13,072 bases of DNA from a virus. Taxonomy: Duplodnaviria; Heunggongvirae; Uroviricota; Caudoviricetes. A program made the translations under genes and the position numbers. The notes under the pieces are model-generated. The model was not told the origin of the DNA, made no database searches, and was given only the letters and a program-made list of their open reading frames with translations. Within the stretch, counting starts at the first letter, position 1; the number at the start of each line of letters is the position of its first letter. Positions 2 to 12,644 of this stretch are shown piece by piece. The stretch lies in IMG/VR virus record IMGVR_UViG_2671180695_000008; one strand, 5' to 3'.

Positions 2-157
2 TTAACCGGTAAACGGGTGGTGTCTGTCCAGAAAGATGGTCGCAGAATTGAATATACGGCGGCTTCTCTGGATGAGCTTAACCGGGCGATCAATGATGCG
101 GAGTCGGTACTGGGGACAACCCGCCGTCGCCGTCGTCCGCTGGGAGTGAGGTTATGA
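2..157 (+). CDS. Head completion protein (lambda gpW-like), C-terminal part; 5' end lies outside the window
   Basis: Frame-2 translation ...GKRVVSVQKDGRRIEYTAASLDELNRAINDAESVLGTTRRRRRPLGVRL* resembles the C-terminus of lambda gpW as recalled (GKRVATVQKDGRRVEFTA...RRRG). Its stop overlaps the portal ATG (ATGA), and it sits directly upstream of the portal as in lambda W-B. Confidence 0.6.
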   Translation, partial: LTGKRVVSVQKDGRRIEYTAASLDELNRAINDAESVLGTTRRRRRPLGVRL

Positions 158-1026
158 AACGAACGCCTGTCCTGATTGATGTGAACGGCGTTCCGCTTCG
201 TGAGAGTCTCAGCTACAACGGGGGCGGTGCAGGATTTGGCGGGCAAATGGCGGAGTGGTTGCCACCGGCGCAGAGTGCCGATGCAGCCCTGCTGCCTGCG
301 TTGCGTCTGGGGAATGCCCGGGCAGATGATCTGGTGCGCAATAACGGGATAGCGGCCAATGCGGTGGCCCTGCATAAGGATCATATTGTCGGGCATATGT
401 TTCTGATCAGCTACCGTCCGAACTGGCGCTGGCTGGGGATGCGGGAGACTGCGGCAAAAAGTTTTGTCGATGAGGTGGAGGCGGCCTGGTCGGAATACGC
501 CGAAGGGATGTTTGGCGAGATCGACGTGGAAGAGAAACGCACGTTTACGGAATTTATTCGTGAAGGTGTGGGCGTTCATGCGTTTAACGGCGAAATCTTT
601 GTGCAGCCGGTCTGGGATACGGAGAGCACGCAACTGTTTCGTACGCGTTTTAAAGCCGTGAGTCCGAAACGGGTGGACACGCCAGGACACGGTATGGGGA
701 ACCGTTTTCTGCGGGCCGGTGTGGAGGTCGATCGATATGGTCGTGCCGTTGCGTACCATATCTGTGAGGATGATTTTCCGTTCTCCGGGAGTGGACGATG
801 GGAACGGATCCCGCGTGAACTTCCCACCGGGCGTCCGGCCATGCTGCATATTTTCGAGCCGGTGGAGGACGGGCAGACCCGTGGGGCTAATCAGTTTTAC
901 AGCGTCATGGAACGGCTGAAGATGCTCGATTCCCTGCAGGCAACACAGCTTCAGTCGGCCATAGTGAAGGCGATTTATGTCTATCATCTCACCGTAGTTG
1001 CCCGCATCGTTCGCCAACTCCACTGA
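154..1026 (+). pseudogene. Portal protein (lambda gpB-like), N-terminal fragment interrupted by an inserted element
   Basis: Translation matches the lambda gpB N-terminal half by recall (GNARADDLVRNNG, FEPVEDGQTRGAN, MLD.LQ.TQLQSAIVKA). Similarity ends after ...SAIVKAIY (codons through 978), followed by 16 unrelated codons (VYHLTVVARIVRQLH) and a stop. The remainder of the portal resumes at 11871. Confidence 0.85.
967..979. other. Candidate attL core (AAGGCGATTTATG) inside the portal coding sequence
   Basis: The same 13-mer with one mismatch (AAGGCGATGTATG) recurs at 11865..11877. Both copies are in the same codon phase of the portal frame, encoding K-A-(I/M)-Y. Confidence 0.65.
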
Positions 1027-1103
1027 AACCCTTGCTGCGTCTGGAATGTCGTTTTCCATGCTTTTGATGACCGTTCATCACCCTTCCAGTTTTTCGCGGT
1101 TTT

Positions 1104-1156
1104 GTGTATTGCAATGTGTATTGCAAATTGGCGATCGGGATGGGTGTGTATTGCAA
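1104..1156. repeat. Three direct copies of GTGTATTGCAA just upstream of int; candidate integrase arm-type binding sites
   Basis: Copies at 1104..1114, 1116..1126 and 1146..1156. Related copies lie at the opposite end of the element (11770..11790). Confidence 0.55.
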
Positions 1157-1174
1157 ATCTCTTGAGGGCTTTTA

Positions 1175-2731: not shown

Positions 2732-3310
2732 ATGAATAAAAATATTGCTGTGACGGGCAAGGGGTACGCTCGTCCAGTGAAAAAATTCTGCGATATTCGT
2801 GATCTCGTCGTTCTGCGCTTTGATAGTGTGAACGTTCGTGTGGTGTATCTGAACGGCGATCCGTGGTTTGTTGCAAAAGATGTTTGTGCTGCGCTGGAAC
2901 TAACCAATTCGCGTACGGCGTTGCAGATGCTTGATGATGATGAAAAGGGAGTAAATTTAACTTACACCCCAGGAGGAAATCAGAATATGAGAATTATCTC
3001 TGAGTCAGGTTTCTACAAACTAATAGCCCGCAGCCGCAAAGCAACGACGCCTGGCACATTTGCTCATCGTTTCAGTAACTGGGTATTCAGAAATGTGATA
3101 CCAGGTATCAGAAAAACGGGGACTTATGGTATCCCGTGGGGTGCATTACAGGATTTTTCCCGCCGTAAAGAGCAATATCAAATAAGTGCCAGCGAGAAGG
3201 GGAGGGAGCTACAGGCATGTAAGCGCAAAAAGCGTGAGCTGGAGGAAGAAGAAAAAACGCTGATACGTGAATATCAGCCTGAGTTTTACTTTGGTAACCG
3301 CATTCAGTGA
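2732..3310 (+). CDS. Bro-N domain protein (phage antirepressor-like)
   Basis: 192 aa; the segment VRVVYLNGDPWFVAKDVCAALELTNSRTALQMLDDDEKG...ISESGFYKLIARSRKATTPGTFAHRFSNWV has the Bro-N / AntA N-terminal pattern (D/E-PWFVAKDV...L.....A). The C-terminal part is charged and probably coiled. Confidence 0.7.
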   Translation: MNKNIAVTGKGYARPVKKFCDIRDLVVLRFDSVNVRVVYLNGDPWFVAKDVCAALELTNSRTALQMLDDDEKGVNLTYTPGGNQNMRIISESGFYKLIARSRKATTPGTFAHRFSNWVFRNVIPGIRKTGTYGIPWGALQDFSRRKEQYQISASEKGRELQACKRKKRELEEEEKTLIREYQPEFYFGNRIQ

Positions 3311-3340
3311 CAAAACAAAGGCGACCGCAAAAGGGTCGCC
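3311..3340 (-). terminator. Hairpin acting mainly as a minus-strand intrinsic terminator, between the convergent Bro and minus-strand genes
   Basis: Stem GGCGACC (3320..3326) pairs with GGTCGCC (3334..3340) around loop GCAAAAG. On the minus strand it is followed by TTTGTTTTGT (plus 3311..3319). No U-run follows on the plus strand. Confidence 0.6.
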
Positions 3341-3406
3341 AGTGGGAACAAGGGAAAACAAAAGCATCACCAACAATGCCACATTTGCGGCTGGTGGGCA
3401 ATGTGA

Positions 3407-3586
3407 TCAGTCAGATTTGGTTCGTTCCAAGGTTTGCAACGAGAGCTTTTTCCTGTGCTCTTTAAGGAATTTCTCAAGAGCAAACGAACAAGGTGCGAAT
3501 CTTTCTGATTCATGTTCATGCGCTATATTTTTGCGTCGTCTCTTACGAGTTGGTGATGGTGTTTTGGTTGATTCTGTGTCGCTCAT
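3407..3586 (-). CDS. Small basic hypothetical protein (59 aa), absent from the supplied ORF track
   Basis: Translated by hand from the minus strand: MSDTESTKTPSPTRKRRRKNIAHEHESERFAPCSFALEKFLKEHRKKLSLQTLERTKSD*. An AGGA lies 8 nt upstream of the ATG; it follows the 3644..3949 gene and precedes the minus-strand terminator. Confidence 0.45.
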   Translation of the reverse strand: MSDTESTKTPSPTRKRRRKNIAHEHESERFAPCSFALEKFLKEHRKKLSLQTLERTKSD

Positions 3587-3643
3587 GGTGCTGTCCTGTA
3601 AAGCAATGCGCCTGCGTTCCTCAAACTATGGCGCTGATATTGG

Positions 3644-3949
3644 CTATTCATGCTCTTTGACCTTGCGTCGCTGGAGTTCTTCACGCGCGACGGTGACGAG
3701 TTGCCCGATCTCCTCGGCTGCTTTGATGCCGATTTGTTCGACCTTAGCCAGGGCATCCAGTGACGACACAAGGGGATTTTCTCCGCTGCCTTCTGCTTGG
3801 CGGCGGGCTATTTCTCCGCGCATGGCGGTTACGATAAATCCGGCATTGCTTTCACCGTCCAGCTTAACGGATTCCATCCCTTGCATAACATCTAGTGGGA
3901 CTCTGACAGTTGTCAGTTGTGATTTTGCGTTTTTGTTAGCCGTTGCCAT
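3644..3949 (-). CDS. Hypothetical small regulator (possible DNA-binding protein), divergent from the rightward operon
   Basis: 101 aa with a strong SD (TAGGAGTTTCAGAA-ATG on the minus strand). It is transcribed divergently from a palindromic operator region. No family is recognised with confidence; a ribbon-helix-helix-like N-terminus is possible but unverified. Confidence 0.55.
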   Translation of the reverse strand: MATANKNAKSQLTTVRVPLDVMQGMESVKLDGESNAGFIVTAMRGEIARRQAEGSGENPLVSSLDALAKVEQIGIKAAEEIGQLVTVAREELQRRKVKEHE

Positions 3950-3970
3950 TTCTGAAACTCCTAATCATCG

Positions 3971-4048
3971 GTGTGTTTCAGTATACACAAAAAAAGAAAT
4001 ACAAAAAGCCTTGACGTGTGTTTCATGCGCTCATAACATGAAACACAC
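3971..4048. promoter_or_regulatory. Divergent control region with a 12-bp perfect inverted repeat, a third half-site and a candidate rightward promoter
   Basis: GTGTGTTTCATG (4016..4027) and its reverse complement CATGAAACACAC (4037..4048) are separated by 9 bp. A further GTGTGTTTCA half-site lies at 3971..3980. TTGACG (4011..4016), a 17-bp spacer and TAACAT (4034..4039) overlap the palindrome. Confidence 0.55.
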
Positions 4049-4139
4049 CGAAAGGATTGTTGAAATACAAAGAGCAACGCCCCGCAGTGCTGGGAACACA
4101 TACGGGGCGTCTAACCAACAACGTAAACTAGGAGCCGTT

Positions 4140-4337
4140 ATGGTTGCTGTAAATCATATACCACACCTTGTACACACACAAACGGCCTTTGTGTGGCGTT
4201 TTCTGGCACTGAGTGCCGGAGAATCTCAAATCATCCACGTAACCGCCTGGACGGAACGCGAAGCGCGTAGCCGTTGCCCGTCCGGTTGTGTTGCTGTATT
4301 CGCTGCAAAAATCCGCCAGGGAGTGAGTCATGCTTAA
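4140..4337 (+). CDS. Hypothetical small protein (65 aa), possible first gene of the rightward operon
   Basis: ATG preceded by AGGAG at the correct spacing. It shares a frame with a long, compositionally odd ORF (3267..4337) that is otherwise rejected, so coding status is uncertain. Confidence 0.35.
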   Translation: MVAVNHIPHLVHTQTAFVWRFLALSAGESQIIHVTAWTEREARSRCPSGCVAVFAAKIRQGVSHA

Positions 4338-4515
4338 AACCTTCCGTGTATTTGCCCGAGCTGTTAACCCAATAGGCCACACAATTGGTATCGCTCAGAA
4401 TGTGAAGGCTGTTAATGTTCAGACGGCTATTGCTGCGGTGAGAAGCGAATCATCAGAATATGGCTTATCACAAGTCATTATTTCAGCAGTGTATGAATTA
4501 AAAGAGGTGCATTAA
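4330..4515 (+). CDS. Hypothetical protein (61 aa)
   Basis: SD GGAGTGAG upstream. Its stop overlaps the next start (TAATG), suggesting translational coupling. Confidence 0.5.
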   Translation: MLKTFRVFARAVNPIGHTIGIAQNVKAVNVQTAIAAVRSESSEYGLSQVIISAVYELKEVH

Positions 4516-4706
4516 TGCAGGAAATTACATTACACGAAGCCGCTGAACGTGCGCACCAGACAGAAATTATTTGCCGCCTTCTTGAGGTATACCCGAACAA
4601 AATTACAGATGCTGATATATCCGCACTGGCGAGCCTACTGGCGCGTCTTTCGGGAAGTGTCGCTAGTTTTTTGATTGAGGAAGAAAGTAAGCTGGTGGGG
4701 GATTAA
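4515..4706 (+). CDS. Hypothetical protein (63 aa)
   Basis: SD AAGAGG upstream; start is coupled to the preceding stop. Confidence 0.5.
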   Translation: MQEITLHEAAERAHQTEIICRLLEVYPNKITDADISALASLLARLSGSVASFLIEEESKLVGD

Positions 4707-4928
4707 ATGAATACAGAACGGGAAGTCTTTTTTAAATTGTTAGCATGTGCAGAAAGTTCATTAACTTTAAATAATTCAGCAAAAGCAATATTAAATATGT
4801 GGCTTGATTGCATAAATGACAATGAAGATGCAAATATTGCTTATGGCCTGTTGTCACTTATTGATGAATCAGCAGAAAAACTCAATGACGCAATAAATAG
4901 TGCCCTGCTATCAAATAAGTCGAGTTAA
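4707..4928 (+). CDS. Hypothetical protein (73 aa), visibly more AT-rich than its neighbours
   Basis: Starts immediately after the previous stop. Its base composition differs from flanking genes, suggesting a separately acquired cargo gene. Confidence 0.5.
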   Translation: MNTEREVFFKLLACAESSLTLNNSAKAILNMWLDCINDNEDANIAYGLLSLIDESAEKLNDAINSALLSNKSS

Positions 4929-4945: not shown

Positions 4946-5245
4946 ATGGAAATGAAAAATTCTGGCTTTATTGCCAGCGGCCCCGCTCGACCTGAATTTA
5001 TGAACGGCGATATTTACCGCGATAAATACGGCGGCACGGTAACGATTAAAGGCGTGGCAGAACGGCGCATCACTTACCGCCGTGAGGGGTATAGCTATGA
5101 CTGCGTGATGCCTGTTTATCAGTTCCGGCGTGATTTTTCCCTGGTATATGCCGCACCCCGCAGTAAGCCCATCAGCAGGGAAAAAGCGTGGGGAAATATC
5201 CAGAAAATGAAAACCATGATTAACGGATTCAGAGGTAAAAAATGA
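4946..5245 (+). CDS. Hypothetical protein (99 aa)
   Basis: SD GAGGA upstream. Its stop overlaps the primase-helicase start (ATGA), placing it in the replication operon. Confidence 0.55.
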   Translation: MEMKNSGFIASGPARPEFMNGDIYRDKYGGTVTIKGVAERRITYRREGYSYDCVMPVYQFRRDFSLVYAAPRSKPISREKAWGNIQKMKTMINGFRGKK

Positions 5246-6996
5246 AACTGGCACCGAACGTAAAACAGCAGTCACGCGGCATAAAACACAAAGGAACAGA
5301 AGTCATTATTTTTGCGGGTAGTGATGCCTGGGCACACGCGAAACAATGGCAGGAACATGATGCGCGTATGGCCGGAGATAATGAGCCTCCTGTGTGGCTT
5401 GGGGAGCAGCAGCTATCCGAACTGGATAATCTGCAAATTGTGCCGGAAGGCCGAAAATCAGCACGCATATACAGGGCCGGATATCTTGCGCCTGTAATGA
5501 TAAAGGCGATTGGTCAGAAGCTGGCGGCAGCAGGCGTACAGGATGCAAATTTTTATCCTGAGGGTATGCACGGCCAGGAGGTGCAGAACTGGCGCGAATA
5601 TCTGGCCCGTGAACGCCAGAATCTTTCTGATGGTCTGGTCATTGAGCTTCCGGTAAAGCAAAAGGCGCAACTTTCGCAGATGGCGGACAGTGAGCGCGCG
5701 CAGTTGCTTGCCGATCGCTTTGATGGCGTTTGCGTACATCCTGAAAGTGAAATCGTTCACGTATGGCGCGGCGGGGTATGGTGTCCGGTCAGCACAATGG
5801 AACTTAGCCGCGAAATGGTGGCGATCTATTCAGAGCACAGGGCCACTTTCAGCAAGCGCGTAATCAATAACGCCGTGGAAGCGTTAAAAGTTATTGCCGA
5901 ACCAATGGGCGAGCCGTCTGGCGATTTGCTGCCGTTCGCCAATGGTGCGCTTGACCTGAAAACGGGGGAATTTTCCCCGCACACGCCGGAGAACTGGATC
6001 ACCACGCACAACGGCATTGAGTACACGCCACCAGCACCAGGGGAGAACATCCGCGATAACGCGCCAAACTTTCATAAATGGCTTGAGCACGCAGCCGGAA
6101 AAGACCCGCGCAAGATGATGCGTATATGTGCCGCGCTGTACATGATTATGGCGAACCGGTACGACTGGCAGATGTTTATTGAGGCCACCGGAGACGGCGG
6201 GAGCGGTAAAAGTACATTCACACACATAGCCAGCCTTCTGGCAGGGAAACAGAACACGGTAAGCGCTGAAATGACATCGCTTGATGATGCTGGTGGACGT
6301 GCGCAGGTTGTCGGGAGTCGTCTTATCGTCCTGGCTGACCAGCCGAAATATACAGGCGAAGGAACGGGCATCAAGAAAATCACAGGCGGCGACCCCGTGG
6401 AAATTAACCCGAAATATGAAAAGCGTTTCACGGCGGTAATCAGGGCGGTGGTGCTGGCGACCAACAACAACCCGATGATATTCACCGAACGGGCCGGAGG
6501 TGTGGCACGTCGTCGCGTGATTTTCCGTTTCGACAATATCGTCAGTGAGGCCGAAAAAGACAGGGAGCTACCGGAAAAGATTGCGGCTGAAATCCCCGTT
6601 ATTATCCGCCGATTGCTGGCGAACTTTACCGACCCTGAGAAGGCACGGGCTTTACTACTGGAACAGCGTGACGGTGATGAAGCACTGGCAATAAAGCAAC
6701 AGACGGATCCGGTTATTGAGTTTTGCCAGTTCCTGAATTTTCTGGAGGAAGCGCGCGGCCTGATGATGGGTGGCGGTGGTGATTCAGTGAAGTACACGAC
6801 CAGGAACAGCCTTTACCGCGTCTATCTGGCGTTTATGGCATACGCGGGCAGGAGCAAACCGCTAAACGTGGCTGAGTTCAGCAAGGCCATGAAGCCAGCG
6901 GCGAAAGTTTACGGGCATGAATATATTACGCGAAAAGTTAAGGGAGTAACGCAGACCAACGCAATTACAACAGACGATTGCGACGCGTTTTTATAA
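5242..6996 (+). CDS. Replication protein: P4-alpha / D5-type primase-helicase (SF3 P-loop NTPase)
   Basis: 584 aa. Walker A motif ATGDGGSGKST, a D5_N-like segment LPFANGALDLKTGEF and a following NTPase core resemble the C-terminal helicase region of P4-family primases. The N-terminal ~150 aa are not confidently assigned. An iteron array follows immediately. Confidence 0.85.
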   Translation: MKLAPNVKQQSRGIKHKGTEVIIFAGSDAWAHAKQWQEHDARMAGDNEPPVWLGEQQLSELDNLQIVPEGRKSARIYRAGYLAPVMIKAIGQKLAAAGVQDANFYPEGMHGQEVQNWREYLARERQNLSDGLVIELPVKQKAQLSQMADSERAQLLADRFDGVCVHPESEIVHVWRGGVWCPVSTMELSREMVAIYSEHRATFSKRVINNAVEALKVIAEPMGEPSGDLLPFANGALDLKTGEFSPHTPENWITTHNGIEYTPPAPGENIRDNAPNFHKWLEHAAGKDPRKMMRICAALYMIMANRYDWQMFIEATGDGGSGKSTFTHIASLLAGKQNTVSAEMTSLDDAGGRAQVVGSRLIVLADQPKYTGEGTGIKKITGGDPVEINPKYEKRFTAVIRAVVLATNNNPMIFTERAGGVARRRVIFRFDNIVSEAEKDRELPEKIAAEIPVIIRRLLANFTDPEKARALLLEQRDGDEALAIKQQTDPVIEFCQFLNFLEEARGLMMGGGGDSVKYTTRNSLYRVYLAFMAYAGRSKPLNVAEFSKAMKPAAKVYGHEYITRKVKGVTQTNAITTDDCDAFL

Positions 6997-7280: not shown

Positions 7281-7595
7281 ATGCGCATACATAAAAATCA
7301 CTTAACAAACATGCCAGCCGAAAACATGAATCAGGGGCGACAAATGACCAAAATTCGCAGAGACAGAACACAGGCAAAATATAAAGCGTTAGACATGACA
7401 GAGCTTTCCTTAAAGGTGGCAATCAAAGCGATAGACCACCACACACGGGCAGGATACGCGAAGGAACATCCCGACCTGATAAGCGCATTCATGACCACAG
7501 CAGCGGCAAACTTTGCCACGCTGACAGAACGGGAGATTGCCGAAGCGGAACAGGTGACAACCATCAATGTTAAAACCGGAGAGCAGACAGCATGA
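7281..7595 (+). CDS. Hypothetical protein (104 aa)
   Basis: G-rich SD (GAGGGGGGG) upstream. Its stop overlaps the next start (ATGA). The start codon is uncertain because internal Met codons exist. Confidence 0.5.
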   Translation: MRIHKNHLTNMPAENMNQGRQMTKIRRDRTQAKYKALDMTELSLKVAIKAIDHHTRAGYAKEHPDLISAFMTTAAANFATLTEREIAEAEQVTTINVKTGEQTA

Positions 7596-8014
7596 CAGCA
7601 CAGATAGCGGCTTACGGGCGGCTGGTGGCTGACCCGCAGTTAAAGACCACCAGCAAAGGGACACAAATGGCGATGGCGAGTATGGCGGTTCCCCTGCCGT
7701 GCAGCCAGGCAGATGACGGAACGGCGACGATGTGGTTATCCGTCCTGGCGTTTGGCAGACAGGCCGACGCACTGGCAAAACACCACAAAGGCGAACTGGT
7801 GAGCGTGGCGGGTAACATGCAGGTAAGCCAGTGGACAGGCCAGAACGGCGAAACGCGGCGGGGCTGGCAGGTTATCGCAGACAGCGTAATCAGTGCGCGA
7901 ACGGCGCGACCGGGCGGCAAAAAAGGCCAGCAGGGGCAGGCCACTGACGCACTGAACAGGGCAAAACAACAGTCGGGGAATGATGATCCGTACGGCGATA
8001 ATATACCGTTTTAA
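7592..8014 (+). CDS. ssb: Single-stranded DNA-binding protein-like (OB fold, C-terminal ...NIPF tail)
   Basis: 140 aa with the pattern GRLVADPQL...G...A.......W.SV.AFG..A..LAK..KGELV.V.G......W....G..R.....ADSV, then a Gly/Gln-rich linker ending DDPYGDNIPF. This resembles the SSB OB core and its acidic ...DDDIPF protein-interaction tail. Confidence 0.7.
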   Translation: MTAQIAAYGRLVADPQLKTTSKGTQMAMASMAVPLPCSQADDGTATMWLSVLAFGRQADALAKHHKGELVSVAGNMQVSQWTGQNGETRRGWQVIADSVISARTARPGGKKGQQGQATDALNRAKQQSGNDDPYGDNIPF

Positions 8015-8021
8015 ATTCTGC

Positions 8022-8050
8022 AAACAAAAAGATGCCGGAAAAAAATAGAT
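8022..8050. other. 11-bp-stem hairpin in the SSB / capsid intergenic region (possible terminator or regulatory structure)
   Basis: ATGCCGGAAAA (8022..8032) pairs with TTTTCCGGCAT (8040..8050) around a 7-nt loop. No clean U-run follows on the plus strand, so terminator function is uncertain. Confidence 0.4.
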
Positions 8051-8225
8051 TTTCCGGCATGCTACATAAATCCCGACCAAAGGAAGTAAATACATTAACA
8101 CGAATTATCAGCACTGAAGTTGTTACGGCATATTTTATACAACATTGCACTTGGTTGCATGTATTCGCATAGCAGACATCGGTAATAGAATATATTCACA
8201 ATTATTTGTAATGAATGTAAAGAGG

Positions 8226-9272
8226 ATGAGTATGGTTGATTTATATTCGCCTACACAGCTTGTGCAGGTGGCTAATGCTGAAGATGTGCAAAAAAAATTA
8301 AATGCGTTGTTTACCAGTTTGTTTTTCACTCGCTCGGTAATGTTTGAATCGAGAGACATTATTCTTGATACGATCGACGATCCAAATATCCCGATCGCGG
8401 CGTTTTGCTCTCCTATGGTGGGCAGTAAAGTTTCACGAGATGAGGGATACGAATCAAAAACAATTCGTCCAGGTTATATGAAGCCGAAAAGCAGCATTGA
8501 TCCAAATAAGTTAGCTGTGCGCCCTGCTGGTGTGTCACCTGAGCAATACAATGCTTTTGGGGCGCGTAATATTAAAGTTAAACAGGCGATTGTAAATCAG
8601 GCTAAAGCTATTCGTGCACGTATTGAATGGCTTGCTGTTCAGGCAATCACAACGGGGAAAAATATCATTGAGGGCGATGGTATTGAACGTTATGAGCTGG
8701 ACTGGAATATAAAACCACAAAATATCATCACTCAGTCTGGCGGTACTGAGTGGTCAGGTAAGGATAAAGAAACTTTTGATCCAAATGATGATATTGAGAG
8801 CTACGCAGAATTTAGTGAGGGCGTCACTAATATCATCATTATGGGTGGTAATGTATGGAAGAAATACCGTTCATTCAGAGCGATAAAAGAGGCTTTGGAT
8901 ACCCGTCGTGGTTCTAATTCCGAACTGGAAACGGCCCTTAAAGACCTTGGTGATTCGGTGAGTTTTAAAGGGTATATGGGCGATGTTGCGATTGTTGTTT
9001 ACAGCGGGCGTTATACCGACGAGGACGGAACAGAAAAACATTTCCTTGATCCTGATTTGATGGTGCTTGGCAATACGGCTCTTCAGGGGATTGTCGCCTA
9101 TGGCGGTATTCAGGATCCGGAGCTAATCCGAATGGGGCTGACTAAAGCCGAACTTGCACCGAAAAACTATATTGTGCCTGGTGATCCGGCTATTGAATAT
9201 GTGCAGACACATTCAGCACCACAGCCAATACCGGCCCGCATCAATCGTTTTGTTACCGTTCGCATTGGCTAA
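8226..9272 (+). CDS. Major capsid protein (lambda gpE-like)
   Basis: Motifs NIITQSGGTEWS, DTRRGSNSELETA, GDVAIVVYSG and MVLGNT match lambda E as recalled. The chosen start MSMVDLYSPTQL parallels lambda MSMYTTAQL and has SD AGAGGA; the ORF track's upstream start at 8145 is less likely. Confidence 0.85.
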   Translation: MSMVDLYSPTQLVQVANAEDVQKKLNALFTSLFFTRSVMFESRDIILDTIDDPNIPIAAFCSPMVGSKVSRDEGYESKTIRPGYMKPKSSIDPNKLAVRPAGVSPEQYNAFGARNIKVKQAIVNQAKAIRARIEWLAVQAITTGKNIIEGDGIERYELDWNIKPQNIITQSGGTEWSGKDKETFDPNDDIESYAEFSEGVTNIIIMGGNVWKKYRSFRAIKEALDTRRGSNSELETALKDLGDSVSFKGYMGDVAIVVYSGRYTDEDGTEKHFLDPDLMVLGNTALQGIVAYGGIQDPELIRMGLTKAELAPKNYIVPGDPAIEYVQTHSAPQPIPARINRFVTVRIG

Positions 9273-9281
9273 GGGGGAGCA

Positions 9282-9623
9282 ATGGCTACTCATTACACTG
9301 AACTCATGGCTGGCACTGAAGCACTGGTGACTACGCTGGGGATATTTTCAGCTAATAAAGGGGTAATTCCTGCATTTACGCCACTGATGCAGGAAGATGC
9401 AACAGGTGCACTGGTGGTATGGGATGGTTCGAGCGTAGGTAAAGCGGTTTATGTTTCCGCTGTACAAATCGACACAGCGAAAAAAACACAGGCACAGGTT
9501 TATAAGACAGGTGTTTTAAATGTTGATGCTCTGAACTGGCCTGAGTCTGTAAAAGAACTGTCGGCAAAGGTTGCCGCGTTTGTTGGCTCAGGTATTTCTG
9601 TTCAGCCGCTGGCTCGTGTGTAA
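9282..9623 (+). CDS. Head decoration protein (lambda gpD-like)
   Basis: 113 aa; the pattern TPLM....G.LV.WDG...G.AV.......T.....YK.G......L.WPE matches lambda D as recalled. SD GGGGGAG upstream. It follows the capsid gene, the reverse of the lambda D-E order. Confidence 0.75.
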   Translation: MATHYTELMAGTEALVTTLGIFSANKGVIPAFTPLMQEDATGALVVWDGSSVGKAVYVSAVQIDTAKKTQAQVYKTGVLNVDALNWPESVKELSAKVAAFVGSGISVQPLARV

Positions 9624-9634
9624 AGGGGGATACA

Positions 9635-10018
9635 ATGCAGAATCATTACAATGACCTTAAGCCAATTGCCGAAATGATGTATCCGGATCCAGCAGTAGAG
9701 GAATTAAAGGCTATTGCTGACAAAATGCGTTTAAGTGAACGCCTTGTTGATATGAATCAGGTGATGGAACTTACTACCCTTAGCCGTCGCACATTGCTAA
9801 ACCTTGAGGCTCGCGGAGAGTTCCCCGAACGCGTACAGGTTACGGAAGGGCGTAAGGCCTGGTATTTAAGTGAAGTGATCGACTGGATAAACAATATTCC
9901 TCGATCTTCTGAATATTGCCGCGTACCTGTCCCAAAAAAGCCAGATGCGGCGCTATGCCTCAAGATTGAGCGTGTACGTCGCAATGCACGGGATGGTCGC
10001 TATAAGTTGATTGGTTGA
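9635..10018 (+). CDS. AlpA/MerR-like HTH domain protein (second AlpA-family member)
   Basis: 127 aa; the segment VDMNQVMELTTLSRRTLLNLEARGEFPERVQVTEGRKAWYLSEVIDWI fits the AlpA-type HTH pattern. It has an N-terminal extension and a basic C-terminus, a GGGGGA SD upstream, and lies immediately upstream of the cos site. Confidence 0.6.
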   Translation: MQNHYNDLKPIAEMMYPDPAVEELKAIADKMRLSERLVDMNQVMELTTLSRRTLLNLEARGEFPERVQVTEGRKAWYLSEVIDWINNIPRSSEYCRVPVPKKPDAALCLKIERVRRNARDGRYKLIG

Positions 10019-10108: not shown

Positions 10109-10219
10109 GCCTTTTTCGGGTGCTGGTGGTGGTTTTGTTGTTCGCTCTATCTCTATGAATAAAAAGGAAAAGATAAAGCCAATACACCAACCTGAAACAT
10201 TACTTAAGTGGGGATATTG

Positions 10220-10762
10220 ATGAAATCGCACCTGATGAACAAAAAAAACATGGCGCAAAGCTGCCATGTAAGTGCGACAGCGTTCGACAAGTGGGGAGTG
10301 ACTCCCGTTGAACGTAAAGGCCGCGAGGCGTTTTATGATGTTGCCAGCGTAATAGACAATCGGGTTAGCAATGCAATTAACCAGATTACAGACGACAAAG
10401 GCGAGATTGATGATGATGAACTCCTACGAGTCAGGATCAGATTGCTGACAGCACAGGCAGAGGCGCAGGAGCTTAAAAACGAGCGCGAACGCGGCGACGT
10501 TATTGATACCGCGTTTTGTATATACGTGCTTTCAAAATTGGCGAGTCAGATTTCTTCAATCATGGACAGCCTGCCGCTTGCCATGACAAGGAAGTTTCCC
10601 GACATGAAGCCGTCTATGCTGGATGGACTGAAAAAAGAAGTTATCAGAGCCTGTAACGCATGCGCAAAACTTGACGAAAACATACCGCTGATGCTGTCCG
10701 ATTATCTGATGGAAACTGCCGGAAACGTACCGGATAAGTTGCAGCCGAATAAAGATAAGTAA
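10220..10762 (+). CDS. Terminase small subunit (lambda Nu1-like)
   Basis: Matches lambda Nu1 by recall (RLTRAQADAQELKNARD...ETAFC.FVLSRIAGEIASILDGLPL...RFPE compared with RLLTAQAEAQELKNERERGDVIDTAFCIYVLSKLASQISSIMDSLPLAMTRKFPD). Start is uncertain: ATG at 10220 (GGGGA SD) is chosen, with alternatives GTG 10208 and ATG 10235. It sits downstream of cos as in lambda. Confidence 0.85.
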   Translation: MKSHLMNKKNMAQSCHVSATAFDKWGVTPVERKGREAFYDVASVIDNRVSNAINQITDDKGEIDDDELLRVRIRLLTAQAEAQELKNERERGDVIDTAFCIYVLSKLASQISSIMDSLPLAMTRKFPDMKPSMLDGLKKEVIRACNACAKLDENIPLMLSDYLMETAGNVPDKLQPNKDK

Positions 10763-11070: not shown

Positions 11071-11094
11071 GATAACGCAAAATTGCGCTGGCTG
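11071..11094. repeat. Direct repeat GATAACGC-N5-TTGCGCTGGCTG (copy 1; copy 2 at 11257..11280)
   Basis: The two 24-bp copies differ at 3 positions and lie 186 bp apart in the non-coding right arm. Each is followed by a TTGCA/TGCAA-type near-palindrome. Confidence 0.5.
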
Positions 11095-11306
11095 ACTTGT
11101 TGCATTGCAAAAAGTTAAGCAGGAAGGCACGGCCTGTAAGATGGGATGCAGTAAGTAGTTCAAGGCTACCTTGTGCTGGCACGCACAGTTAAGCCGTCGG
11201 TGCTGGATATCCCCCACTGGGGGAAAAGCTGGCTACATCCCTCACATCTGAGGACTGATAACGCGACATTGCGCTGGCTGGCAAAGTGCAAAATTGCACG
11301 ATGGCC

Positions 11307-11468
11307 TAACCCATTGATTATTTCGAAAACCTGCAATGCAGGAAATCGGGGAAGTAAGCCTAAGCTATTGATTGTTTCGAAAACCCCCATTGGGGGATGT
11401 CGGGAAAGTAAGACTAACCCATTGATTCTTCCACAATCCTCAATTTGAGGAGGCCGGAACGTCTACAT
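11307..11468. repeat. Tandem ~54-bp repeat (3 units) each containing a 5-bp-stem, 3-nt-loop hairpin with covarying stems; candidate structured RNA or recognition array
   Basis: Units 11307..11360, 11361..11414 and 11415..11468 share TAA(C/G)C(C/T)ATTGATT...TTCGAAAAC and CGGG.AAGTAAG flanks. Internal hairpins are CCTGC-AAT-GCAGG (11330..11342), CCCCC-ATT-GGGGG (11384..11396) and CCTCA-ATT-TGAGG (11438..11450). The third unit is more diverged. Confidence 0.6.
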
Positions 11469-11769: not shown

Positions 11770-11790
11770 GTGTATTGCAGTGTGTATTGC
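11770..11790. repeat. Two direct copies of GTGTATTGC(A) near the right junction; candidate integrase arm-type sites
   Basis: GTGTATTGCA at 11770..11779 and GTGTATTGC at 11782..11790, in the same orientation as the three copies beside int. An AT-rich tract lies between them and the att core. Confidence 0.5.
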
Positions 11791-11864
11791 GACTCCTTTA
11801 AACGATAGGTCTGAGCATTCGTAATGTACTGTTTTTAAATTTTATTTTTTCCTGTCTTTTCATA

Positions 11865-11877
11865 AAGGCGATGTATG
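11865..11877. other. Candidate attR core (AAGGCGATGTATG)
   Basis: Matches 967..979 at 12 of 13 positions. Portal homology resumes here (IKAMYAATIE...). Confidence 0.65.
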
Positions 11878-12644
11878 CAGCGACGATTGAAAGTGACCTT
11901 GATACCGAAAAGGCCTTTGAATATATCGCCGGTGCGCCGCAGGGGCAGAAGGATAATCCGCTTATTAATATTCTGGATAAGTTCTCCACCTGGTATGACA
12001 CGAATAGCGTGACGCTGGGTGGTGTCAAAATTCCGCACCTTTTCCCCGGTGATGATCTGAAACTTCAGACCGCGCAGGATTCAGACAATGGATTTTCGGC
12101 GCTTGAACAGGCGCTGCTGCGGTATATCGCCGCCGGTCTTGGCGTTTCCTACGAACAGTTGTCCCGTGATTACTCGAAGGTCAGTTATTCAAGTGCCCGC
12201 GCATCCGCCAATGAGTCGTGGCGCTATTTTATGGGGCGGCGAAAATTTATTGCGTCCCGGCTGGCCACGCAGATGTTTTCCTGCTGGCTGGAAGAGGCAC
12301 TTCTTCGGGGGATTATTCGTCCGCCACGGGCACGTTTTGATTTTTATCAGGCGCGATCAGCCTGGTCACGGGCTGAGTGGATTGGAGCCGGAAGAATGGC
12401 CATTGACGGGCTCAAGGAGGTTCAGGAATCAGTGATGCGCATTGAGGCCGGACTGAGCACGTATGAGAAAGAGCTGGCGCTGATGGGCGAGGATTATCAG
12501 GACATTTTCCGCCAGCAGGTCAGGGAATCTGCAGAGCGGGAAAAAGCCGGACTCTCACGTCCGGTGTGGATAGCGCAGGCGTATCAGCAGAAGATAGCGG
12601 AGAGTCGCAGGCCGGAAGAGGAGACAACACCACGTGAGACGTAA
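11871..12644 (+). pseudogene. Portal protein (lambda gpB-like), C-terminal fragment downstream of the insertion
   Basis: Translation MYAATIESDLDTEKAFEYI...LGGVKIPHLFPGDDLKLQTAQDSDNGFSALEQALLRYIAAGLGVSYEQLSRDYSKVSYSSARASANESWRYFMGRRKF...WIGAGRMAIDGLKEVQESVMRIEAGLSTYEKE matches the lambda gpB C-terminal half by recall. The ORF begins at a fortuitous in-frame ATG, and similarity starts at about 11862. Confidence 0.85.

What the first reader, a model, noticed from the sequence alone, without database searches (positions are those of the whole stretch)
3971..4048. Perfect 12-bp inverted repeat plus a third half-site overlapping a candidate promoter between divergent genes
GTGTGTTTCATG-N9-CATGAAACACAC overlaps the candidate -35/-10 of the rightward operon, and an extra half-site lies ~40 bp upstream. 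This looks like the element's master switch, with the divergent 101-aa protein (3644..3949) as candidate repressor.
Basis: partly seen in the sequence, partly recalled or inferred. Interest (0 to 1): 0.5.

Follow-up and report, generated by a model that had tools for sequence, protein, structure and literature searches.

The report
Repressor-operator switch of a phage satellite
The palindrome is real and is one of four evenly spaced binding sites that sit on two back-to-back promoters of a phage satellite; comparison with related elements points to the small neighbouring protein as the repressor that reads them, a regulator that had been reported as missing in this class of satellite.

Summary
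GTGTGTTTCATG-N9-CATGAAACACAC lies at 4016-4048, and a third exact copy of GTGTGTTTCA lies at 3971-3980.

The window is a ~10.8 kb helper-embedded PICI satellite inserted in a lambdoid portal gene.

The "extra half-site" has a degenerate partner at 3995-4004. This gives four half-sites, 21-24 bp apart. S3 and S4 bracket a conserved sigma-70-like rightward promoter (TTGACG-17-TAACAT). S1 and S2 mirror them on the leftward promoter of the 101-aa gene.

The 101-aa protein belongs to the YlcI/YnfO family. It has a predicted ribbon-helix-helix (RHH) domain followed by a long C-terminal helix.

All 20 related loci examined, from Escherichia, Xenorhabdus, Photorhabdus, Yersinia, Serratia, Enterobacter, Klebsiella and Erwinia, keep this layout. 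They include the model PICI EcCICFT073.

The half-site sequence changes in step with the beta-strand of the RHH domain, in at least 8 specificity groups. It does not track AlpA, Bro-N, Icd-like, integrase or the small operon ORFs. In some groups the pair is a direct repeat, which excludes a hairpin function.

Best reading: an RHH repressor that blocks the replication-operon promoter and regulates its own. "Master switch" is unproven, because AlpA is the known essential activator. I found no paper describing this module. It is a new member of a known kind.

The parts
3971..3980 (+). Half-site S1 (GTGTGTTTCA; extended match TCGGTGTGTTTCA 3968-3980). It covers about -7 to +3 of the inferred leftward promoter.
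   Evidence: Exact repeat. A site is present at the same position (intergenic nt 21-26) in all 18 loci tabulated.
3995..4004 (-). Half-site S2, degenerate and inverted (AGAAATACAA, reverse complement TTGTATTTCT, 7 of 10 matches).
Evidence: Found by position-restricted matching. The equivalent site scores 8-10 of 10 in L003, L007, L010, L012, L014 and L018.
4016..4027 (+). Half-site S3, the left arm of the perfect 12-bp inverted repeat. It starts at the last base of the -35 hexamer and fills the promoter spacer.
4037..4048 (-). Half-site S4, the right arm of the inverted repeat (core 4039-4048). It overlaps the end of the -10 hexamer and the expected transcription start.
4011..4039 (+). Rightward promoter P_R: -35 TTGACG (4011-4016), 17-nt spacer, -10 TAACAT (4034-4039).
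   Evidence: Promoter scan. TTGAC-like -35 at intergenic nt 62-65 in 16 of 17 loci (1 nt off in L004); 17-nt spacer in 12 of 17, 16-18 in the rest; -10 begins TA in 14 of 17. EcCICFT073 has TTGACG-18-TATAGT. Activity has not been measured.
3980..3985 (-). Inferred -10 (TATACT on the minus strand) of the leftward promoter of the 101-aa gene. No convincing -35 was found.
   Evidence: An (A/T)TATAC-like motif sits at this position in most loci, whatever the half-site sequence, and reads TATAAT in Xenorhabdus and Photorhabdus. The automatic scan was not consistent for this promoter, so this part is an inference.
3644..3949 (-). Gene for the 101-aa YlcI/YnfO-family protein: predicted RHH domain (about residues 10-53), flexible linker, long helix (59-100). 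This is the candidate repressor.
3407..3586 (-). 59-aa basic ORF downstream of the repressor gene on the same strand; possibly co-transcribed. Function unknown.
   Evidence: Relatives are 70-86% identical in L016, L018, L019 and EcCICFT073, where RefSeq annotates one as a hypothetical protein. It matches phrog_21027, of unknown function. It is absent from the Xenorhabdus and Photorhabdus loci that share the operator.
4076..4139 (+). Conserved structured leader of the rightward transcript: a two-tier hairpin (ACGCCCCG 4077-4084 paired with CGGGGCGT 4103-4110), then TCTAACCA, then a small hairpin around the Shine-Dalgarno sequence (4120-4139).
   Evidence: Repeat finder pair I10. RNAalifold on 13 loci gives 13 pairs, 7 of them with compensatory changes. 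No Rfam family matches.
4140..4337 (+). First gene of the controlled operon: Icd-like protein (65 aa). It is followed by small ORFs, DUF4222 (4946-5245) and a P4-type primase (5242-6996).
   Evidence: NCBIfam NF033153 scores 63.7 bits. Pfam. RefSeq annotation of the identical element in E. coli APEC O2-211.

Best explanation
The 3968-4051 region is the control region of a two-promoter switch in a Gram-negative PICI-type satellite.

Four 10-bp half-sites (S1 to S4), 21-24 bp apart, are binding sites for the divergently encoded 101-aa YlcI/YnfO-family protein. Its N-terminal RHH domain reads one half-site per dimer through its beta-strand. The long C-terminal helix probably joins two dimers, so that one oligomer spans two half-sites about two helical turns apart.

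Occupying S3 (in the promoter spacer, next to the -35) and S4 (over the -10 and start site) would exclude RNA polymerase from P_R. That would keep the Icd-like/DUF4222/primase replication operon silent. Occupying S1, and the weaker S2, in the mirror-image positions of the leftward promoter would give negative autoregulation.

Shown here: the sites, their phasing, their overlap with a conserved promoter, the predicted RHH fold, and the co-variation of site sequence with the beta-strand.

Inferred: binding itself, the oligomeric state, the direction of regulation, the leftward promoter, and how repression is lifted. Candidates for lifting it are the AlpA-driven Bro-N protein acting as antirepressor, a helper protein, or read-through from alpA or the helper late operon.
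For: 1. Sites and statistics. The perfect 12-bp inverted repeat arose in 0 of 3000 shuffles of the intergenic region. All three exact 10-mers in the window cluster here.

2. Conserved layout. In 17 loci the best repeated word falls at intergenic nt ~22, 45, 68 and 90. Using the 10-mer next to the -35 as probe, 16 of 18 loci score 22 or more out of 30 at the three other expected positions. Shuffled controls average 17.0 (sd 1.6), and 0.35% of them reach 22.

3. Promoter. A TTGAC-like -35 lies at intergenic nt 62-65 in 16 of 17 loci. The spacer is 17 nt in 12 of them and 16-18 in the rest, and the -10 begins TA in 14.

4. Footprint-like conservation. In the alignment of 8 same-specificity loci from 4 genera, the arms are nearly invariant while the 9-13 nt between S3 and S4 varies.

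5. Specificity co-variation. Each beta-strand type has its own half-site:
- QLTTVR: GTGTGTTTCA
- QMTT(I/L)R: GTGTATATCA
- QSLTAR: GTGTAAGAC
- KQISIR: GTGATTCA
- Q(L/V/I/M)KN(I/V)R: GTGTGTATTTA
- QQ(L/I)NAR: TGG(T/G)ATTCA
- QALKAR (EcCICFT073): GTGGGCCACA
- QAIAAR: GTGTAAACA

6. Other proteins do not track the operator.
- Xenorhabdus and Photorhabdus loci with the window's operator have AlpA only 18-35% identical, integrase about 30%, and Icd-like 32-44% or undetected.
- Of the small operon ORFs, orf61 and orf73 have no counterpart in any same-operator locus. orf63 has one in two of the seven (50-54% identical).
- L019 has a 96% identical Bro-N protein but a different operator.
- L016, L018 and L019 have 80% identical Icd-like proteins but different operators.
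- L014 has a C-terminal domain 94% identical and an N-terminus only 50% identical, with a different operator.

7. Fold.
- NF041551 hit.
- The N-terminal model has pLDDT 86.5.
- hhalign puts the beta-strand in register with Arc's.

8. In the KN group and in EcCICFT073 the S3/S4 pair is a direct repeat at the same spacing. That fits protein binding sites and not a hairpin.
Against: - No experiment exists. Binding, promoter activity and transcription starts are all unmeasured.
- The operator lies within 20-130 bp of the codons for the beta-strand. Some of the co-variation could therefore reflect inheritance as one recombination block rather than recognition.
- The EcCICFT073 homologue lacks the C-terminal helix yet keeps the 23-bp spacing. 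The helix therefore cannot be the only thing that sets the spacing.
- Published work on EcCICFT073 found an activator (AlpA) sufficient to trigger excision and replication and did not detect a repressor (PMC6092414).
- L016 fits the four-site pattern poorly in the automatic test (15 of 30).
Confidence: 0.75

Rival explanations
1. The inverted repeat acts as a nucleic-acid hairpin (terminator, attenuator, RNA processing site or DNA cruciform) rather than as a protein binding site.
For: A 12-bp perfect stem with a 9-nt loop would be very stable. The region could be transcribed by read-through from alpA/bro or from the helper late operon (PMC10111431).
Against: In the KN-type loci (L007, L011, L022) and in EcCICFT073, the two sites at the same positions are direct repeats and cannot pair. 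No T-run follows the stem, and the terminator scan does not report it. It lies upstream of the expected start of P_R. The third and fourth copies lie 45 bp away in phase, which a hairpin does not explain.
Confidence: 0.03
2. The sites are read by another element protein, such as AlpA (the known PICI activator), Bro-N, Icd-like (its relatives are labelled 'transcriptional repressor' in PHROGs) or a small operon ORF. The 101-aa protein would then do something else.
For: AlpA is the experimentally established regulator of Gram-negative PICIs (PMC6092414). The Icd-like protein matches phrog_1743 and phrog_6196, both annotated as transcriptional repressor. Bro-N network proteins can be repressors (PMC10111431).
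Against: Half-site sequence does not follow any of these proteins.
- The same operator occurs with AlpA 18-35% identical and with Icd-like 32-44% identical or undetected.
- Different operators occur with Bro-N 96% identical (L019) and Icd-like 80% identical (L016, L018, L019).
- orf61 and orf73 have no counterpart in any same-operator locus, and orf63 has one in only two of the seven.
- AlpA could still act elsewhere in the region, at a site that does not vary.
Confidence: 0.07
3. The 101-aa RHH protein is the antitoxin of a type II toxin-antitoxin pair with the downstream 59-aa ORF. The repeats would then only autoregulate that pair.
For: RHH antitoxins dominate the structural neighbours. A small basic ORF follows on the same strand and is conserved in several E. 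coli elements. Autoregulation through palindromes over the promoter is typical of such modules (general knowledge).
Against: The 59-aa ORF is missing from the Xenorhabdus, Photorhabdus, Klebsiella and Enterobacter loci that keep the whole four-site layout. It matches no toxin family. The strongest pair of sites (S3/S4) sits on the divergent promoter, not on the protein's own.
Confidence: 0.05
4. The phased sites organise a nucleoprotein complex for another DNA transaction (replication origin, partition or centromere-like site, or excision/packaging accessory site), as with RHH proteins such as ParG, omega, TraY and TraM.
For: Four phased sites at about two-turn spacing resemble centromere or iteron arrays. 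TraM, omega and ParD are among the structural neighbours.
Against: The sites map precisely onto -35/spacer and -10/+1 of a conserved promoter in every locus. The PICI origin lies downstream of pri-rep (PMC6092414). Other repeat arrays elsewhere in the window (11071-11451) are better candidates for cos- or ori-type functions.
Confidence: 0.05

Closest known systems
Phage P22 immI region: Mnt and Arc repressors at the divergent Pant/Pmnt promoters (from my own knowledge, not checked in a paper here)
   Different: Arc and Mnt half-sites are about one helical turn apart within a roughly 20-bp operator. Here half-sites are 21-24 bp apart and there are four of them. The controlled operon encodes replication functions, not an antirepressor. 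Sequence similarity is not significant.
NikR and FitAB-type RHH oligomers that bind half-sites about two turns apart (from my own knowledge); omega repressor of pSM19035
   Same: Two RHH dimers held apart by an oligomerisation module contact half-sites about 20-23 bp apart. Omega binds its repeats in either direct or inverted orientation, as seen here between specificity groups. NikR and omega are structural neighbours.
   Different: There is no metal-binding or toxin-bridging domain here, only a predicted single long helix. The function is control of a mobile element.
Stl/Rpr master repressors of Gram-positive PICIs (SaPIs)
   Same: Same position in the element's logic: a leftward repressor gene, divergent from the rightward excision/replication operon, next to int (PMC6092414).
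   Different: To my knowledge Stl proteins are larger helix-turn-helix proteins unrelated to RHH. Their derepression by helper proteins has been demonstrated. For the present protein neither repression nor derepression has been tested, and AlpA activation has no Gram-positive counterpart.
EcCICFT073 and helper-embedded PICIs (Fillol-Salom 2018, PMC6092414; Tommasini 2023, PMC10111431)
   Same: The window shares their int, alpA, Bro zone, primase/SSB, capsid E, decoration and small-terminase-like layout, and it is integrated co-oriented in a prophage late gene. EcCICFT073 carries the same divergent YlcI/YnfO and Icd-like pair, with two GTGGGCCACACC sites on TTGACG-18-TATAGT.
   Different: [quoted passage not shown] In CFT073 both small genes carry much higher-numbered RefSeq locus tags than their neighbours, which suggests, but does not show, that they were annotated later.
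P1 immI (c4 RNA, icd, ant) and P4 immunity (CI RNA)
   Same: An Icd-like ORF is the first gene, preceded by a conserved structured leader. Tommasini et al. report C4/isrK-type RNAs in some PICIs.
   Different: No C4, isrK or other Rfam family matches here or in 16 related loci. Control by a protein repressor at the promoter is not, as far as I know, part of the P4 scheme.

Membership tests
YlcI/YnfO family (NCBIfam NF041551) | Score above the curated cutoff of the family HMM | tested here: met
   63.3 bits against a cutoff of 30, E 1.6e-17, residues 9-50. RefSeq names the identical protein WP_000179580.1 'YlcI/YnfO family protein'.
Ribbon-helix-helix (Arc/MetJ/CopG) DNA-binding superfamily | Beta-strand, helix, helix fold of about 45 residues | tested here: met
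Ribbon-helix-helix (Arc/MetJ/CopG) DNA-binding superfamily | Significant sequence match to a curated RHH family or to a solved RHH protein | tested here: inconclusive
   Only sub-threshold hits. Pfam PSK_trans_fac matches 16 of 23 homologues, best E 0.0011; that this family is RHH-type is my recollection, not checked. hhalign against Arc gives P 0.004 in the right register. HMM search of the PDB finds no RHH hit.
Ribbon-helix-helix (Arc/MetJ/CopG) DNA-binding superfamily | Dimer whose paired beta-strands contact bases of a repeated operator | not testable with these tools
   Indirect support only: the beta-strand residues are the hypervariable part of the family and co-vary with the half-site sequence.
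Sigma-70 promoter with an overlapping operator | -35 and -10 hexamers at 16-18 nt spacing, conserved in position; repressor sites within -35 to +5 | tested here: met
   This is at the sequence level only. 9 of 12 consensus matches. The arrangement recurs at the same place in related loci. S3 and S4 lie in the spacer and over -10/+1. Activity is not testable here.
Gram-negative PICI / helper-embedded PICI | int, alpA and a P4-type primase in a 10-20 kb island; integration co-oriented inside a prophage late gene | tested here: met
   Pfam and NCBIfam hits. The lambda-family portal gene is split at 154-1026 and 11871-12644. The identical element sits inside a lambdoid prophage in APEC O2-211.
C4 / IsrK / P4 CI immunity RNAs (Rfam) | Covariance-model match at or near the gathering score in the leader or Bro zone | tested here: not met
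   No hit at gathering score in the window. No hit up to E = 10 in 3300-4400. No hit at gathering score in 16 related loci.
Type II toxin-antitoxin module with an RHH antitoxin | A conserved toxin gene immediately downstream in the same operon | tested here: not met
   The downstream 59-aa ORF matches no toxin family and is absent from many loci that keep the module.

The most novel reading that the evidence does not exclude
The YlcI/YnfO-type RHH protein is the long-sought master repressor of Escherichia-type Gram-negative PICIs, including EcCICFT073, cf-PICIs and helper-embedded PICIs.

Under this reading, its rapidly diversifying beta-strand and operator pairs define heteroimmunity groups, which would let several satellites coexist in one cell without cross-repression. 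Induction would require its inactivation, by the AlpA-driven Bro-type protein, by a helper protein, or by transcription from alpA or the helper late operon. The conserved structured leader before the icd-like gene, which matches no known RNA family, would be a second, RNA-level layer of the same switch.
Probability: 0.35. Interest if true: 0.7.

Novelty: new member of a known kind. Interest (0 to 1): 0.5.

Why it matters
The founding paper on Gram-negative PICIs made three relevant statements (PMC6092414):
- these islands are transcribed in one direction only;
- the difference from Gram-positive PICIs, which use a divergent Stl/Rpr repressor, is "a mystery".

The module analysed here is a divergent repressor-like gene with operators on the promoter of the replication operon. 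It is present in the model island EcCICFT073 itself and across many Enterobacterales.

If it works as inferred:
- Gram-negative and Gram-positive PICIs would share the same basic logic.
- The uncharacterised YlcI/YnfO family would gain a function.
- The set of at least eight matched beta-strand/half-site pairs would be a natural data set for how RHH proteins read DNA, and a source of orthogonal repressor-operator pairs.

All of this can be tested directly with existing EcCICFT073 genetics.

Tried and rejected
- An HMM search of PDB sequences gave only a marginal match of the C-terminal part to the Hef helix-hairpin-helix domain (E 0.0039). AlphaFold predicts one continuous helix there instead, so I did not adopt the HhH reading.
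- Pfam gave only sub-threshold hits.
- Rfam gave no family for the leader hairpin or anything else in the region. The idea that the leader is a C4/CI-type immunity RNA was therefore dropped as a membership claim.
- tblastn of the 101-aa protein against 50,697 phage records found nothing.
- I searched the helper prophage flanks for the operator word, to test cross-talk with the helper. The only three matches in 25 kb are the satellite's own sites.
- The region upstream of the helper's own YlcI/YnfO gene shows no repeat array of this four-site type; the repeats there lie just upstream of the Nu1 homologue nohD and may be cos-related (my reading).
- The automatic search for a leftward promoter was inconsistent between loci.
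- Six literature searches found no description of this gene or these sites. Subscription-only papers are not covered.

Full report
**1. The observation**

Reading the sequence and running the repeat finder confirm the coordinates. GTGTGTTTCATG lies at 4016-4027, a 9-nt spacer follows, and CATGAAACACAC lies at 4037-4048. A third exact GTGTGTTTCA lies at 3971-3980. The 13-mer TCGGTGTGTTTCA at 3968-3980 is the exact reverse complement of 4039-4051.

The 10-mer occurs three times in the 13-kb window, all within these 78 bp. A perfect inverted repeat with arms of 12 bp or more arose in 0 of 3000 dinucleotide-preserving shuffles of the intergenic region, and in 4 of 300 shuffles of the whole window.

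The only sigma-70-like promoter match in 3500-4500 is TTGACG (4011-4016), 17 nt, TAACAT (4034-4039) on the + strand. The left arm therefore begins at the last base of the -35 hexamer, and the right arm covers the end of the -10 hexamer and the expected start site.

**2. Context**

The window is a ~10.8 kb island inserted in a lambda-family portal gene, whose N-terminal part is at 154-1026 and C-terminal part at 11871-12644. Its genes are:

| Coordinates | Strand | Product |
|---|---|---|
| 1175-2416 | + | integrase |
| 2418-2675 | + | AlpA |
| 2732-3310 | + | Bro-N protein |
| 3407-3586 | - | 59-aa ORF |
| 3644-3949 | - | 101-aa protein |
| 4140-4337 | + | Icd-like protein |
| 4330-4928 | + | three small ORFs |
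| 4946-5245 | + | DUF4222 protein |
| 5242-6996 | + | P4-type primase |
| 7592-8014 | + | SSB |
| 8145-9272 | + | capsid protein E |
| 9282-9623 | + | head decoration protein |
| 9635-10018 | + | second AlpA-like protein |
| 10208-10762 | + | Nu1-like small terminase |

The 1.1-kb query (3300-4400) is 100% identical in E. coli APEC O2-211, where RefSeq annotates the same gene order and the island sits inside a lambdoid prophage.

This is the "helper-embedded PICI" configuration described by Tommasini, Mageeney and Williams (PMC10111431). That paper does not mention the 101-aa gene or the repeats.

**3. The protein**

The 101-aa protein passes the NCBIfam YlcI/YnfO model (63.3 bits against a cutoff of 30). 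It belongs to PHROG 6522, whose function is unknown. Pfam gives only sub-threshold hits.

Two AlphaFold models were made:
- Full-length model: an extended segment at 12-18, helices at 19-26 and 35-55, a low-confidence linker, and one long helix at 59-100.
- Residues 1-56 alone: pLDDT 86.5.

Homologues occur across Enterobacterales. Within the family the C-terminal two thirds are conserved, and the stretch corresponding to the RHH beta-strand (residues 11-17) is hypervariable, with about 19 variants among 120 cluster representatives.

**4. Comparative anatomy**

I collected 20 further loci:
- 11 from one-genome-per-species contigs;
- 8 by exact look-up of selected homologues;
- EcCICFT073 from the CFT073 chromosome.

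In the loci fetched with 2.5-kb flanks, the gene is divergent from a co-oriented operon. That operon contains a DUF4222 gene and a replicase (a D5_N primase, DUF927 or AAA_25 protein) wherever the flank reaches them. An Icd-like product is detectable by similarity in most loci. An AlpA or HTH_17 gene lies on the other side, with an integrase in most.

In every locus the best repeated word falls at four places, about nt 22, 45, 68 and 90 counted from the repressor start codon. A TTGAC-like -35 hexamer sits at nt 62-65 in 16 of 17 loci. The spacer is 17 nt in 12 of them and 16-18 in the rest, and the -10 hexamer begins TA in 14.

Using the 10-mer adjacent to the -35 as probe, 16 of 18 loci score 22 or more out of 30 at the other three expected positions. 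Shuffled controls average 17.0 (sd 1.6), and 0.35% of them reach 22.

In the window the four sites are:

| Site | Coordinates | Note |
|---|---|---|
| S1 | 3971-3980 | exact copy |
| S2 | 3995-4004 | degenerate, 7 of 10, inverted |
| S3 | 4016-4025 | exact copy |
| S4 | 4039-4048 | exact copy, inverted |

Relative to the expected starts (near 4046 rightward; near 3973 leftward, assuming the conserved minus-strand TATACT at 3985-3980 is the -10), the geometry is as follows:
- S3 and S4 occupy about -30 to -21 and -7 to +3 of P_R.
- S2 and S1 occupy the mirror positions of the leftward promoter.

This geometry is my inference from hexamer positions, not a measured result.

**5. Who reads the sites**

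The half-site differs between loci and follows the beta-strand type:

| Beta-strand type | Loci | Half-site |
|---|---|---|
| QLTTVR / QLFTVR | window, Xenorhabdus, Photorhabdus, Serratia | GTGTGTTTCA |
| QMTT(I/L)R | Yersinia L025, E. coli L026 | GTGTATATCA |
| QSLTAR | Enterobacter, Klebsiella | GTGTAAGAC |
| KQISIR | L014 | GTGATTCA |
| Q(L/V/I/M)KN(I/V)R | L007, L011, L022, L016 | GTGTGTATTTA |
| QQ(L/I)NAR | L018, L019, L012 | TGG(T/G)ATTCA |
| QALKAR | EcCICFT073 | GTGGGCCACA |
| QAIAAR | L027 | GTGTAAACA |

Other genes of the element do not track the operator:
- Xenorhabdus and Photorhabdus loci with the window's operator have AlpA only 18-35% identical, integrase about 30%, and Icd-like 32-44% or undetected.
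- Of the three small operon ORFs, orf61 and orf73 have no counterpart in any same-operator locus. orf63 has one in two of the seven (50-54% identical in L008 and L009).
- L019 has a Bro-N protein 96% identical to the window's but a different operator.
- L016, L018 and L019 have Icd-like proteins 80% identical but different operators.
- L014 has a repressor C-terminal region 94% identical and an N-terminal 30 residues only 50% identical, with a different operator.

Within the same-specificity group, the arms are nearly invariant across four genera, while the 9-13 nt between S3 and S4 varies freely apart from the -10 positions.

One caveat applies: the operator and the beta-strand codons are adjacent, so linkage contributes to the correlation.

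**6. Not a hairpin**

In the KN-type loci and in EcCICFT073, the S3/S4 pair is a direct repeat with the same 23-bp start-to-start spacing. The conserved feature is therefore two phased sites of one sequence, in either orientation. That fits a flexibly linked symmetric reader such as an RHH dimer, and not a stem-loop.

**7. Mechanism proposed**

One RHH dimer binds per half-site. Half-sites about two helical turns apart are bridged by oligomerisation, probably through helix 59-100; to my knowledge Mnt, NikR and FitAB work in comparable ways.

Occupying S3/S4 would occlude P_R and silence the replication operon. Occupying S1 and the weaker S2 would autoregulate the repressor gene.

How repression is lifted is unknown. 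Candidates are:
- the Bro-N protein encoded just after alpA;
- a helper protein;
- convergent read-through from alpA or the helper late operon across the repressor gene (compare PMC10111431).

The EcCICFT073 homologue is only 59 aa and lacks the long helix, yet it keeps the spacing. The helix is therefore not indispensable for the layout.

**8. Comparison with the literature**

Fillol-Salom et al. 2018 (PMC6092414) describe Gram-negative PICIs as transcribed unidirectionally. [quoted passage not shown]

EcCICFT073 carries the module in the current RefSeq annotation: C_RS30120 (YlcI/YnfO family) and C_RS30125 (Icd-like).

Six full-text searches found no paper that assigns a function to this gene in satellites. 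One 2026 survey only lists "YlcI/YnfO, prophage-associated protein" as an accessory gene of cf-PICIs.

**9. Verdict**

The candidate-repressor reading is well supported by comparative evidence, although it remains untested at the bench. The "master switch" label is unproven.

In kind this is an ordinary RHH repressor-operator switch, closest in design to P22 Mnt/Arc, so it is a new member of a known kind. It also fills a stated gap in PICI biology and can be tested directly in the model element.

Noticed in passing
window 4076-4139; also L002-L022 at the equivalent position: The leader of the rightward operon carries a conserved two-tier hairpin (outer stem ACGCCCCG/CGGGGCGT), then TCTAACCA, then a small hairpin around the Shine-Dalgarno sequence of the icd-like gene. 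7 of 13 consensus pairs show compensatory changes across 13 loci. No Rfam family matches, including C4 and isrK. It may be an RNA-level control layer, by analogy with c4-icd-ant in P1 (my recollection).
   Followed up: partly
L024 8474-9053 (E. coli CFT073, NC_004431.1 1380473-1381052): The model PICI EcCICFT073 has the same divergent pair. Its YlcI/YnfO protein is only 59 aa: the RHH domain fused directly to the basic tail, with the long helix deleted. Two GTGGGCCACACC sites in direct orientation, 23 bp apart, lie on TTGACG-18-TATAGT. Both small genes have much higher-numbered locus tags than their neighbours, which suggests later annotation.
   Followed up: yes
window 3407-3586 (- strand): A 59-aa, very basic ORF lies downstream of the repressor gene. 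It is 70-86% identical in several E. coli PICIs including EcCICFT073 and matches phrog_21027 (unknown function). It is not annotated in the identical APEC O2-211 element.
   Followed up: partly
window 154-1026 and 11871-12644; L001: The whole element interrupts a lambda-family portal gene and is co-oriented with it, which is the helper-embedded PICI configuration. The helper prophage carries its own shorter YlcI/YnfO gene (77 aa), divergent from nohD (the Nu1 homologue). That arrangement hints at a wider, unexplained association between this family and packaging regions.
   Followed up: partly
window 8032-8060: An 11-bp perfect inverted repeat (ATGCCGGAAAA-N7-TTTTCCGGCAT) lies just after ssb and before the capsid gene. 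It looks like a bidirectional terminator or another regulatory site.
   Followed up: no
window 11071-11451: Three 38-nt repeats with a 54-nt period (11306, 11360, 11414) each contain their own small palindrome whose sequence differs between copies. A 24-nt repeat also occurs at 11071 and 11257. Both lie downstream of the Nu1-like terminase gene and could be the satellite's cos/packaging or origin region.
   Followed up: no
window 1103-1158 and 11781-11794: TGTGTATTGCAA(A/T) is repeated three times just upstream of int and once near the right end. These are probably integrase arm-type sites flanking attL and attR.
   Followed up: no
window 3644-3780 (residues 57-101 of the 101-aa protein): The C-terminal region gives a marginal HMM match to the helix-hairpin-helix domain of Hef nuclease (1x2i, E 0.0039; LxxVExIGxKxAxEI). 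AlphaFold, however, predicts one continuous helix. The two readings remain unresolved.
   Followed up: partly
window 4140-4337: The Icd-like protein matches PHROGs 1743 and 6196, which are labelled 'transcriptional repressor', whereas NCBIfam calls it a cell-division-inhibitor-like protein. The basis of the PHROG label is unknown.
   Followed up: no
L011 1907-2049: A strong Rfam isrN (Hfq-binding sRNA) match (152.7 bits) lies about 1 kb downstream of the YlcI-like gene (552-836), on the same strand, on a contig labelled Martelella alba.
   Followed up: no
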